Source: Anaerolineae bacterium (GTDB lineage: Bacteria > Chloroflexota > Anaerolineae > 4572-78 > NAK82). Taken from it: 64,000 nt of DNA. Positions 29,243 to 43,374 of this stretch are shown in pieces. The position numbers were made by a program, and so were the translations under genes. The stretch is from positions 9,173-73,172 of the forward strand of contig DAOTVI010000067.1 in the NCBI GenBank assembly GCA_034436775.1, written 5' to 3'. Under the pieces are notes generated by a model. It was given only the letters and a program-made list of their open reading frames with translations, was not told the DNA's origin and did not search any database. Position 1 is the first letter of the stretch. Each line of letters opens with the position of its first letter.

Positions 29243-29325
29243 TGCCCCGGAGTGGACTCGAACCACCACGCCCATTCGGGCACAGGCCCTCAACCTGCTG
29301 CGTATGCCAATTCCGCCACCGGGGC
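29243..29325 (-). tRNA. tRNA-Leu (anticodon GAG), type II with a long variable arm
   Basis: GCCCCGGTGGCGGAATTGGCATACGCAGCAGGTTGAGGGCCTGTGCCCGAATGGGCGTGGTGGTTCGAGTCCACTCCGGGGCA. 7-bp acceptor stem, anticodon loop TTGAGGG, variable stem GCCC/GGGC, T-loop TTCGAGT. CCA is not encoded. Confidence 0.9.
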
Positions 29326-41721: not shown

Positions 41722-42246
41722 TCACTCCGCCTCGAGCGCGGCGCGCAACGCACGCAGCGAGATCTTCAGTTCCAGCAGGTGCACCAGCTGGTCGCCCACG
41801 AAGCTGGCGTAGGCACGCTGGTAGCGAAAGCCAAAATGCTGATAGAAGGCGATCGCCGGCGCGTTGTCCACTTCCACCGAGACATAGCAACGGTGGATGC
41901 CCGCCCTCGCCATGGCATGCACGCCGGCCTGCAACAGCGCGCGCCCGATGCCCCGGCGTTGGTGCGCCGGCAGGACATAGATGCGCACCAGCTCACCATG
42001 GCCATCGCCACGGCGCAGGAACTGGGCGAACCCGAGCACTTCTTCCCCGCTCACCGCGACGAAGAACCAGCTCTGGGCCATCTGCAGCGCCGCGACGAGC
42101 GCCGCATCGGTATAGGAACGCTCTAATACGCGCTGTTGGTTGTGCGGTGCAATGCTCTGCGCATAGGTGATGCGCCAGGTCTCACGCGCCACCCGACCGA
42201 TGGCCGGCACGTCGGCAGATGTGGCAGGCCGGACGTAGTACTCCAC
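41722..42246 (-). CDS. GNAT-family N-acetyltransferase
   Basis: Acetyl-CoA motif VLPAHQRRGIGRALL and a typical approximately 175-aa length. Start placed at GTG 42246 (VEYYVRPATSADV) because the ORF-track start at 42612 lies inside the upstream gene. Confidence 0.7.
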   Translation of the reverse strand: MEYYVRPATSADVPAIGRVARETWRITYAQSIAPHNQQRVLERSYTDAALVAALQMAQSWFFVAVSGEEVLGFAQFLRRGDGHGELVRIYVLPAHQRRGIGRALLQAGVHAMARAGIHRCYVSVEVDNAPAIAFYQHFGFRYQRAYASFVGDQLVHLLELKISLRALRAALEAE

Positions 42247-42339
42247 AACACCCCCACGGCGGGCATAGAGTGTGTGTTCAGTATAGGACGGCGGGCCGCA
42301 AGAGGCAATTCGGAGGGGTGGAACAAGCAATAATAAGGG

Positions 42340-42370
42340 AAAAAAGACTGAGGGGCGCTTGTCGCACCCC
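42340..42370 (-). terminator. Terminator-like hairpin after the peroxiredoxin gene
   Basis: Minus strand reads GGGGTGC gacaa GCGCCCC (7 bp including one G-U), then TCAGTC, then TTTTTT. Confidence 0.4.
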
Positions 42371-42407
42371 CCAGTCGCTGGCCGTGATGAAAATTTCCCC
42401 CAGACGC

Positions 42408-43163
42408 CTATTTCAGCAGCAGTTCGGTGAGCTTGGCGACATCGAAGTCCAGCACAATGGTGCCGTTGATGTCGAAGGTGGGCGTCACCAGGTTGCCGCC
42501 CGCCCACTGGCGCACCTTGCGCGCTGCCGCCGGGTTGGCATTCACATCCACCTCGGTGTACTTGATCCCGTGCTCCTGCAACCAGATGCGTGCCCGCTGA
42601 CAGTCGCCACACCAGCGCGTGCAGTACAGCACAACACCCCCAGCGGGCGGCGATGCGGCCGGCACCTCCGCCTCGCCGGGCAGGCGCGCCGCCAGCTCCG
42701 GCTCCAACTTGCGCAACTCGGCCAACAGCACCTCGTTCTGCGGCTGGTCGTTGATGTCGTGCACGTCAATGTAGCGGATGATCCCCTGCTTATCAACCAG
42801 GAAGATCGCCCGCTCGGAATAGCCCTCCGCACGCAGCACGCCGTACTTCCTCGCCACCTCGCCGTGCGGCCAGAAGTCGCTGAGCAGCGGATAGCTGATG
42901 TTGCCCAGACTTTCCGCCCACGCCTTCAGACAGGGAACATGATCCACGCTTATGCCCAGAACCTGGGCATCTAATGCCCCAAACTTGGCCATGTCGGCCT
43001 CGTAAGCGGGCATCTGGTTCGTTCAGACGGGTGTCCAGGCGAGCGGGAAGAAGACCAGCACGACGTTCTTGCTGCCGCGCAGGTCGCTGAGCGTGACCTT
43101 CTTGCCCAGATGGCTCGGCAGGGTGAAATCAGGTGCCGGGTCTCCTACTCTCAGATGGGTCAT
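42408..43163 (-). CDS. AhpE-like 1-Cys peroxiredoxin fused to a glutaredoxin/mycoredoxin-like CxxC domain, with an in-frame TGA (43023-43025) at the peroxidatic position: candidate selenoprotein
   Basis: From ATG 43163 (AAGGAGG RBS) the frame reads [77 protein letters not shown]... and continues into the 201-aa ORF-track entry. [19 protein letters not shown] is AhpE-like. The C-terminus reads [15 protein letters not shown]...GGNLVTPTF. Confidence 0.65.
42974..43013 (-). other. SECIS-like extended hairpin downstream of the in-frame UGA
   Basis: The mRNA reads UGA-acgaaccag-AUGCCC g cuuacga GGCC gacau GGCC aaguuug GGGCAU. It has a 6-bp basal stem, internal loops and a 4-bp apical stem with a 5-nt loop, and begins 9 nt after the UGA. 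Confidence 0.4.
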
Positions 43164-43374
43164 ATCCACACCTCCTTAAGATCGCAGAATGGGCGGCGCA
43201 AAACCCGATGGCGGTAGCCCCAGGGCTGCACCGCATGCTGTAAACTAATTCGATACATATAGCACAATTCCCTGCAATGCGCAAATCCGGAAGGTGAGAC
43301 GGAACGCCCTGGCGCTGGTGAAATTGCGTGGGAAGGCGATCGTGTACGATGCGTGCCGACGGCGCGGCAGGCAT

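What the first reader, a model, noticed from the sequence alone, without database searches (positions are those of the whole stretch)
42408..43163. In-frame TGA at the peroxidatic-cysteine codon of an AhpE-like peroxiredoxin fused to a mycoredoxin-like domain (candidate selenoprotein missed by ORF calling)
The ORF track starts this gene at ATG 43013, which leaves a peroxiredoxin lacking its N-terminal half and its catalytic residue. The same frame upstream, from ATG 43163 behind AAGGAGG, reads [57 protein letters not shown]... This is a complete Prx N-terminus in which the TGA (43023-43025) replaces the Cys of the FFPLAFTxxC motif. Downstream blocks ([19 protein letters not shown]) resemble mycobacterial AhpE. 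The last approximately 75 aa ([15 protein letters not shown]...GGNLVTPTF) resemble mycoredoxin/NrdH-type CxxC redoxins. Mycoredoxin-1 is a reported reductant of AhpE, so this would be a natural fusion of a peroxidase with its reductant, with Sec as the catalytic residue. Sec-peroxiredoxins exist (PrxU of Eubacterium acidaminophilum), but I do not know of this fused architecture.
Basis: partly seen in the sequence, partly recalled or inferred. Interest (0 to 1): 0.8.

Follow-up and report, generated by a model that had tools for sequence, protein, structure and literature searches.

The report
Unannotated selenocysteine peroxiredoxin–redoxin fusion gene
This is very probably a real selenoprotein gene that gene callers cut in two: an AhpE-like peroxidase whose catalytic residue is selenocysteine (encoded by UGA), fused to a mycoredoxin-like domain; selenocysteine peroxiredoxins are already a known family, so it is a solid annotation fix and not a new kind of system.

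Summary
On the minus strand, 43163..42408 is one 251-codon frame with a single in-frame TGA (43025-43023) at the peroxidatic position of a complete AhpC/TSA domain. A glutaredoxin-fold CxxC domain follows. The TGA is very probably a selenocysteine codon, for five reasons. (1) 27 of 80 homologous genome loci carry TGA at exactly this codon, including all 17 fused Anaerolineae orthologues (53-87% identity); 50 carry TGC/TGT. (2) Protein conservation is equal on both sides of the TGA. (3) A hairpin starting 11 nt after the U of UGA meets all four published bacterial SECIS criteria. It covaries (88% paired; 8 of 15 pairs with double changes) and is absent from Cys-form genes of the same fused family. 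(4) TGA is the commonest normal stop codon in the window. (5) The real start has AAGGAGG; the ATG of the 201-aa call has no ribosome-binding site, lies inside the hairpin, and is Ile in most orthologues. The Prx half is closest to M. tuberculosis AhpE and the C-terminal half to mycoredoxin-1. Not shown: selA/selB/selC/selD in this genome (none in the window; the rest of the contig was out of reach) and selenium incorporation. "Prx, PF00578, TxxU" is an established selenoprotein family, and Cys forms of this fusion are abundant, so novelty is modest.

The parts
42408..43163 (-). Complete coding sequence of the Sec-peroxiredoxin/redoxin fusion (251 aa including U47; stop TAG 42410-42408)
   Evidence: tblastn alignments to 17 fused orthologues run across the TGA.
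43171..43177 (-). Shine-Dalgarno AAGGAGG, 7 nt before ATG 43163-43161
   Evidence: Read directly from the sequence. ATG 43013, the start of the 201-aa call, has no such motif.
43023..43025 (-). UGA codon 47, proposed selenocysteine at the peroxidatic position of P40-x3-T44-x2-U47
   Evidence: TGA at the same codon in 27 of 80 homologous loci and TGC/TGT in 50. Aligned to the peroxidatic Cys of AhpE.
42973..43014 (-). SECIS-like hairpin. The stem starts 11 nt after the U of UGA; upper stem GGCC/GGCC; apical loop GACAU at 42995-42991, 27 nt after the UGA
   Evidence: MFE -22 to -23.6 kcal/mol. 88% paired across 20 homologues, 8 of 15 pairs with double changes, 0 of 500 shuffles reach the observed score. 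Absent from Cys forms. A leave-out covariance model scores 74.6 bits against 49.9 for sequence alone.
42768..43148 (-). AhpE-like peroxiredoxin domain (aa 6-132), with invariant P40, T44 and R118
   Evidence: Pfam PF00578 E 1.6e-41. Best PDB match AhpE Rv2238c. Fold match TM 0.90-0.92. Invariant columns in alignment A2.
42417..42635 (-). Glutaredoxin-fold, mycoredoxin-like domain (aa 177-249)
   Evidence: Pfam PF00462. TIGR02196 and TIGR02200 match below their cut-offs. Best PDB match Mrx1 2LQO, E 1.2e-8.
42600..42623 (-). Cysteine cluster C181-x3-C185-G-D-C188. C185 is invariant; C181 and C188 are at least 90% conserved.
   Evidence: Aligns with the CGYC active site of Mrx1.
42336..42376 (-). 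Intrinsic-terminator-like hairpin (13 pairs, 9 G-C) followed by a T run, 32 nt after the stop codon

Best explanation
The gene encodes one 251-residue selenoprotein. During translation, the hairpin at 42973-43014 acts as a bacterial SECIS element. It recruits SelB-GTP-Sec-tRNA(Sec) so that UGA-47 is read as selenocysteine and not as stop (inferred from the anatomy and from comparative evidence). Sec47 sits in the P40xxxT44xxU47 active site with R118 and reduces a hydroperoxide, becoming a selenenic acid (inferred from the established Prx mechanism). The fused mycoredoxin-like domain then recycles it. The invariant C185 attacks to form a selenenylsulfide, either directly or after a low-molecular-weight thiol has added. 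C188 resolves this to a C185-C188 disulfide, which an external reductant clears (inferred; the external reductant is unknown). Shown here: the reading frame, the Sec/Cys pairing, conservation on both flanks, and a covarying hairpin specific to the TGA forms. Inferred: Sec insertion, peroxidase activity, and electron transfer between the two domains.
For: TGA sits at the homologous codon in 27 of 80 genome loci, including all 17 fused Anaerolineae orthologues down to 53% identity; 50 loci have Cys. Of the 120 closest protein clusters, 72 have Cys and 47 are TGA forms: 21 truncated calls and 26 translated as Trp. An NJ tree needs at least 7 Sec/Cys switches, and the window lies in a pure-TGA clade of at least 22 clusters. 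In 14 orthologues, amino-acid identity is 69.5% for the 36 codons upstream and 71.4% downstream; substitutions by codon position are 681/761/2090 and 702/544/1561. The hairpin meets the published bSECIS criteria (PMC13188914): 5-nt loop starting with G, 4-bp upper stem, 27-nt spacing, -22 kcal/mol. Covariation: 88% paired against 25-45% when partners are slid. In the model structure, fused Sec forms average -12.9 kcal/mol and fused Cys forms +4.3. Structure adds about 25 bits for TGA forms and -5 to +3 bits for Cys forms. TGA ends 24 of 42 long ORFs in the window. AAGGAGG precedes ATG 43163. The two domains best match AhpE and Mrx1, and Mrx1 reduces AhpE in vitro (PMC6178380, citing Hugo et al. 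2014). Anaerolineales genomes carry SelB and Sec-type formate dehydrogenases (PMC4959059).
Against: No tRNA-Sec, selA, selB or selD was found in the 64-kb window or in about 578 kb of related loci. The rest of the 481-kb source contig and the rest of the genome could not be read. No Rfam SECIS family matches, and RNAalifold returned no consensus structure on the alignment. The hairpin lies in coding sequence, so part of its conservation reflects protein constraint. The loop's G is the first base of an Asp/Glu codon, and only 15 of 20 homologues keep a G there. There is no experimental evidence for selenium incorporation or for electron transfer between the domains. Atomic coordinates of the predicted structure were not available, so the distance between residue 47 and C185 is unknown.
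Confidence: 0.88

Rival explanations
1. The TGA is a genuine stop. The locus is a pseudogene or a split gene, and only the 201-aa C-terminal product (and perhaps a 46-aa fragment) is made.
For: Gene callers produce exactly this split. No Sec machinery was seen in the window.
Against: The 201-aa product would lack the catalytic residue and the first three strands of the Prx fold. Its ATG (43013) has no ribosome-binding site and lies inside the hairpin stem. That codon is Ile (QIP) in 16 of the 17 fused orthologues; only L001 keeps QMP, so the start is not conserved. The upstream 46 codons are as conserved as the downstream ones, with mostly third-position changes and no stops or frameshifts. 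A nonsense mutation would not persist at one codon across 27 genomes from several phyla.
Confidence: 0.04
2. The UGA is recoded to something other than selenocysteine, by genome-wide TGA=Trp/Gly reassignment or by near-cognate read-through that inserts Trp or Cys.
For: 26 database homologues are translated with Trp at this position. Cys insertion at Sec codons is known when selenium is scarce (general knowledge).
Against: TGA is the commonest ordinary stop in the window's long ORFs, 24 of 42. The Trp translations come from short contigs where a caller chose code 4. Trp at the peroxidatic position would abolish catalysis, whereas homologues have Cys there. The hairpin, which is specific to TGA forms and covaries, is what SelB-dependent decoding requires and what plain read-through does not.
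Confidence: 0.05
3. Sequencing or assembly error created the TGA from TGC or TGT.
For: A single-base change would be enough.
Against: The identical gene appears on two independently assembled metagenome contigs, from samples 3300066320 and 3300064102. The TGA is present in 27 other assemblies.
Confidence: 0.01

Closest known systems
Sec-containing peroxiredoxin selenoprotein family (Prx, PF00578/COG1225, TxxU motif; prototype PrxU of Eubacterium acidaminophilum)
   Same: AhpC/TSA domain with Sec replacing the peroxidatic Cys in PxxxTxxU, a bacterial SECIS directly downstream, and Cys homologues. This is one of the more widespread bacterial selenoprotein families: 78 organisms and 91 proteins in PMC5029168.
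   Different: It is not a PrxU orthologue (NF040737: 62.8 bits against a cut-off of 270). The Prx domain is AhpE-like, and a C-terminal CxxC redoxin domain is fused to it. The reviews I read do not mention such a fusion.
Mycobacterium tuberculosis AhpE (Rv2238c) with mycoredoxin-1 (Rv3198A)
   Same: The N-terminal domain is closest to AhpE by sequence and by fold. The C-terminal domain is closest to Mrx1, and its CGDC aligns with the Mrx1 CGYC. AhpE is a 1-Cys Prx reduced by Mrx1.
   Different: Here the two are one polypeptide, the catalytic residue is Sec, and the host is a Chloroflexota (Anaerolineae-type) bacterium, in which mycothiol is not expected (general knowledge, not tested). The mycoredoxin model TIGR02200 scores 45.7 against a cut-off of 89.5.
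Bacterial Prx5-glutaredoxin hybrid peroxidases (e.g. Haemophilus influenzae PGdx)
   Same: A peroxiredoxin domain followed by a glutaredoxin-fold domain that recycles it. PREX lists these as the known Grx-Prx fusions.
   Different: Those belong to the Prx5 subfamily, use Cys, and depend on glutathione. Here the Prx domain is AhpE-like, and no Prx5 or PGdx structure appears among the top fold matches.

Membership tests
Bacterial selenoprotein gene (Sec-UGA decoding) | In-frame UGA aligned with a conserved, redox-active Cys in homologues (Sec/Cys pair) | tested here: met
Bacterial selenoprotein gene (Sec-UGA decoding) | Coding conservation on both sides of the UGA, and TGA-containing orthologues in other organisms | tested here: met
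Bacterial selenoprotein gene (Sec-UGA decoding) | bSECIS stem-loop directly downstream: 3-9 nt loop, upper stem of at least 4 bp, G in the first two loop positions, 16-37 nt from the UGA, MFE of -7.5 kcal/mol or lower | tested here: met
   Criteria from PMC13188914. Window element: loop GACAU, stem GGCC/GGCC, 27 nt, -22 kcal/mol. Covariation and Cys-form controls.
Bacterial selenoprotein gene (Sec-UGA decoding) | selA, selB, selC (tRNA-Sec) and selD present in the same genome | not testable with these tools
   None in the window or the fetched loci. Lineage-level support comes only from the literature.
Bacterial selenoprotein gene (Sec-UGA decoding) | Selenium actually incorporated (75Se labelling or mass spectrometry) | not testable with these tools
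   Needs an experiment
Prx selenoprotein family (PF00578, TxxU) | AhpC/TSA domain with PxxxTxxU and the conserved catalytic Arg | tested here: met
   PF00578 matched over 1-124 of 124. P40, T44 and R118 are invariant.
PrxU equivalog (NCBIfam NF040737) | Score at or above the curated cut-off of 270 bits | tested here: not met
   62.8 bits
AhpE subfamily of peroxiredoxins | Nearest characterised relative is AhpE by sequence and by fold | tested here: met
   E ~1e-30, against 1.9e-23 for the next subfamily. TM 0.90-0.92, rmsd 1.4 A.
AhpE subfamily of peroxiredoxins | PREX/DASP active-site profile assignment; 1-Cys type with no resolving Cys in the Prx domain | tested here: inconclusive
   The PREX profile could not be run. 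C78 (VPCLKAW) is common but is replaced by V, T, A or S in several orthologues.
Mycoredoxin (TIGR02200) / YruB glutaredoxin-like (TIGR02196) | Score at or above the curated cut-off (89.5 / 88.55 bits) | tested here: not met
   45.7 and 58.2 bits. Mrx1 is nevertheless the closest solved structure, and the CxxC motifs align.
Prx5-Grx hybrid peroxidases | Prx domain belongs to the Prx5 subfamily | tested here: not met
   Top sequence and fold matches are AhpE, then BCP and Prx1 types. There is no Prx5 or PGdx among the best 60 sequence hits or 50 fold hits.

The most novel reading that the evidence does not exclude
Sec-AhpE-like/Mrx-like fusions may form a distinct, so far undescribed subfamily of bacterial selenoproteins that is widespread in Anaerolineae. 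In this reading the peroxidase and its dedicated reductant work as one self-recycling unit through a U47-C185 selenenylsulfide. That would give Rosetta-stone evidence that the AhpE-mycoredoxin partnership is ancient and does not depend on mycothiol. It might also account for 'orphan' Sec machinery such as the SelB of Anaerolinea thermophila, which has no annotated selenoprotein dehydrogenase.
Probability: 0.4. Interest if true: 0.55.

Novelty: new member of a known kind. Interest (0 to 1): 0.4.

Why it matters
There are three practical consequences. First, it corrects a systematic annotation error. In public data this gene and dozens of orthologues are stored as 46-aa plus ~200-aa fragments, or with Trp at the catalytic residue. 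This hides a likely front-line peroxide-defence enzyme of Anaerolineae and under-counts their selenoproteome. Second, the natural fusion of an AhpE-like peroxidase to a mycoredoxin-like domain, found in both Sec and Cys versions with at least 7 interconversions, is a ready-made comparative system for asking what Sec adds to a peroxiredoxin and how 1-Cys Prxs are recycled. Third, the SECIS alignment built here could be used to find and correct further members.

Tried and rejected
- RNAalifold on the 20-sequence alignment returned an empty structure. I used explicit pair counting with shuffle and slide controls instead.
- Rfam at gathering threshold over the window found nothing. At E<=10 on 42850-43200 it found only a chance Rubella_3 hit.
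- ARAGORN and motif searches for SelA (SGDKLLGGPQ), SelB (GHVDHGKT) and SelD (GxGC/UxxK) over the window and about 578 kb of loci gave no tRNA-Sec and one junk-frame hit.
- A window-wide scan for other TGA-bridged ORFs, as independent evidence of Sec use, gave 133 candidates. Inspection of the ten best after the target showed junk frames or adjacent-gene artefacts.
I modelled the closest natural Cys form, P0008, instead.
- I considered chasing the Sec machinery through further database scans and dropped the idea.
- The BSepDB paper holds no searchable supplement, so I could not check whether these orthologues are already catalogued there.

Full report
**Observation**

The minus strand of 42408-43163 is one reading frame of 251 sense codons plus TAG, broken only by a TGA at 43025-43023 (codon 47). 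ATG 43163 follows AAGGAGG (43177-43171) after a 7-nt spacer. ATG 43013 has no such motif.

With codon 47 read through, Pfam AhpC-TSA covers residues 6-132 over the entire model (1-124 of 124, E 1.6e-41), and Glutaredoxin covers 177-235. A terminator-like hairpin with a T run lies 32 nt after the stop (42376-42336), so the gene looks like a self-contained unit.

The exact 201-aa product occurs on two independently assembled JGI metagenome contigs, of 481 kb and 69 kb. On both, the gene caller produced a 46-aa Redoxin/AhpC-TSA fragment followed by the 201-aa protein. That is the classic split of a selenoprotein gene.

**Is the TGA a Sec codon? Comparative evidence**

A scan of one genome per species returned 80 related loci. 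I read the codon aligned to position 47 in each.
- 27 loci have TGA. These include all 17 full-length fused orthologues from Anaerolineae/Chloroflexota MAGs (53-87% identity). They also include unfused relatives in Bacilli, Sulfobacillus harzensis, Acidobacteriota and Limnocylindria.
- 50 loci have TGC or TGT.
- 3 loci have Ser.

Among the 120 closest protein clusters, 72 have Cys. Another 21 are truncated to 192-202 aa, starting just after the TGA. 26 have Trp at that position, which is TGA translated under code 4 on short contigs. One has Arg. A neighbour-joining tree needs at least 7 Sec/Cys changes, and the window lies in a pure-TGA clade of at least 22 clusters.

In 14 orthologues that share a register, the 36 codons upstream of the TGA are as conserved as the 36 downstream (69.5% against 71.4% amino-acid identity). 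Substitutions fall mostly at third positions on both sides (681/761/2090 and 702/544/1561), with no stops or frameshifts. The Met that starts the 201-aa call is Ile in 16 of the 17 fused orthologues (QIP instead of QMP; only L001 keeps QMP), so that start is not conserved.

TGA ends 24 of 42 long ORFs in the window, so there is no genome-wide reassignment.

**SECIS element**

The RNA downstream of the UGA folds into a hairpin whose stem begins 11 nt after the U of UGA (42973-43014, -22 to -23.6 kcal/mol). The published bacterial SECIS constraints are a 3-9 nt apical loop on an upper stem of at least 4 bp, G in the first two loop positions, 16-37 nt between UGA and loop, and MFE of -7.5 kcal/mol or lower (PMC13188914). 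All four are met: loop GACAU, stem GGCC/GGCC, 27 nt.

Twenty TGA homologues align without gaps (A1). On that alignment the 15-pair structure shows the following:
- 88% of cells are paired, against 25-45% when partners are slid by 1-3 columns.
- 8 pairs carry changes on both sides (36 cells).
- None of 500 shuffles reaches the observed covariation score.

The best control is the Cys form of the same fused protein. Five such genes were fetched (L083-L087). They pair only 55% of the model positions and have +4.3 kcal/mol in the model structure (MFE -11.1). The 18 fused TGA forms pair 88% and have -12.9 kcal/mol (MFE -21.7).

I built a covariance model without the window and without its near-identical relative L001. 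It finds the window's site as the only hit in 64 kb (74.6 bits, E about 3e-16). A sequence-only model from the same alignment gives 49.9 bits. Structure therefore adds about 25 bits for the window and for L001, but only -5.4 to +3.3 bits for the five Cys forms. These bit-score differences are approximate, because the two models have different effective sequence numbers. The hairpin tracks the UGA, not the protein sequence.

Some caveats apply. RNAalifold returned no structure. No Rfam family matches. The element lies in coding sequence. Only 15 of 20 homologues keep G at the first loop position.

**What the protein is**

The best solved relative of the N-terminal domain is M. tuberculosis AhpE (Rv2238c, E about 1e-30). 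U47 aligns with the AhpE peroxidatic Cys in VFFPLA[WF]T..C. An AlphaFold model of the closest natural Cys form (P0008; pLDDT 91.9, pTM 0.80) superimposes on AhpE with TM 0.90-0.92 and rmsd 1.4 A. P40, T44 and R118 are invariant.

The best solved relative of the C-terminal domain is mycoredoxin-1 (Rv3198A, 2LQO, E 1.2e-8), with TRWCGDC aligned to TSWCGYC. C185 and W184 are invariant, and C181 and C188 are at least 90% conserved. One homologue (P0011) keeps only the C185 equivalent, which points to C185 as the essential nucleophile.

Curated family cut-offs are not reached for PrxU (62.8 against 270), mycoredoxin (45.7 against 89.5) or YruB (58.2 against 88.55). So these are nearest neighbours, not memberships.

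Mrx1 reduces AhpE in vitro (Hugo et al. 2014, as summarised in PMC6178380). PREX lists glutaredoxin fusions only for the Prx5 subfamily.

**Mechanism**

I commit to the following.
1. SelB-dependent insertion of Sec at UGA-47, directed by the 42973-43014 hairpin.
2. Peroxide reduction by the Sec47 selenolate, giving a selenenic acid.
3. Attack by C185 of the fused redoxin domain, in the same or a partner subunit, possibly after a small thiol has added. This gives a selenenylsulfide that C188 resolves.
4. Reduction of the C185-C188 disulfide by an unidentified cellular reductant.

Step 1 rests on strong comparative evidence. Steps 2-4 are inferred from the established Prx and AhpE/Mrx1 chemistry and from residue conservation.

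Gene neighbourhoods differ between loci. In the window the neighbours are DUF4126, DUF4013, a GNAT acetyltransferase and a LacI-type regulator; other loci have other neighbours. This fits a stand-alone, self-recycling enzyme.

**What is missing**

No tRNA-Sec, selA, selB or selD lies in the window or in any fetched locus. I could not reach the rest of the contig or the genome. The Sec-decoding trait is documented in the class: Anaerolineales single-cell genomes carry SelB and Sec-type formate dehydrogenases, and A. thermophila UNI-1 encodes SelB (PMC4959059). That is lineage-level support only.

**Novelty**

"Peroxiredoxin (Prx), PF00578/COG1225, TxxU" is an experimentally anchored and widespread prokaryotic selenoprotein family. 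Under the reviews' own rule of domain plus Sec motif, this gene belongs to it. A 2026 database (BSepDB; 57,630 entries from 16,621 species) may already list the orthologues. I could not check.

The fusion architecture is common, and JGI names its Cys forms 'peroxiredoxin/glutaredoxin'. I found no description of a Sec-containing AhpE-like/Mrx-like fusion in the searchable literature.

I therefore rate it as a new member of a known kind, with a modestly distinctive architecture. Interest is 0.4.

Noticed in passing
Protein clusters P0006, P0014, P0018, P0019, P0025 and 21 others: 26 public protein entries of this family carry Trp at the catalytic position. Gene callers on short contigs translated the Sec-TGA under genetic code 4. 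This is a systematic database artefact, separate from the truncation artefact.
   Followed up: partly
Protein P0023; placement in the tree: One homologue has Arg (WTPVRTGQ) at the Sec position and is nested among TGA forms in the tree. CGA is one nucleotide from TGA, so this is either an inactivated variant or a sequencing error.
   Followed up: no
Protein P0011: This is a Cys-form fusion whose redoxin motif is S-T-S-W-C-P-D-S, so only the invariant C185 equivalent remains. That suggests a monothiol mode is enough in some members.
   Followed up: no
L023:3127-3129 (Sulfobacillus harzensis DSM 109850, NZ_JABBVZ010000003.1): A cultured isolate carries an unfused homologue with TGA at the same codon (SYPLAWTPV*TKEMPAF). 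Its downstream hairpin is different. It could serve as an experimental system for Sec incorporation in this Prx clade.
   Followed up: partly
L047, L058, L063 (Terriglobia MAGs), codon aligned to position 47: Three homologues have Ser (AGC/AGT) in place of Cys/Sec, in an altered motif (FYPMNWEPVS). They are probably catalytically inactive Prx-like paralogues. Other Acidobacteriota loci (L039, L041, L042) have TGA.
   Followed up: no
window 43190-43290 (- strand), upstream of the gene: An AT-richer patch (ggaattgtgctatatgtatcgaattagtttacagc) lies in the ~210-nt intergenic region before the Shine-Dalgarno sequence. It probably holds the promoter or an operator. The sigma-70 scan found no match there.
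   Followed up: no
window 42219-42974 (+ strand): A 251-aa ORF runs antisense across the gene. It is a shadow ORF of the kind common in 62% G+C DNA, not a gene.
   Followed up: no
window 29243-29325 (- strand): tRNA-Leu (GAG), the only tRNA in the window.
   Followed up: no
Literature, PMC4959059: Anaerolinea thermophila UNI-1 is reported to encode SelB but to have no annotated selenoprotein dehydrogenase. Unannotated selenoproteins such as this Prx fusion might be what that machinery serves. I did not check whether UNI-1 carries this gene.
   Followed up: no
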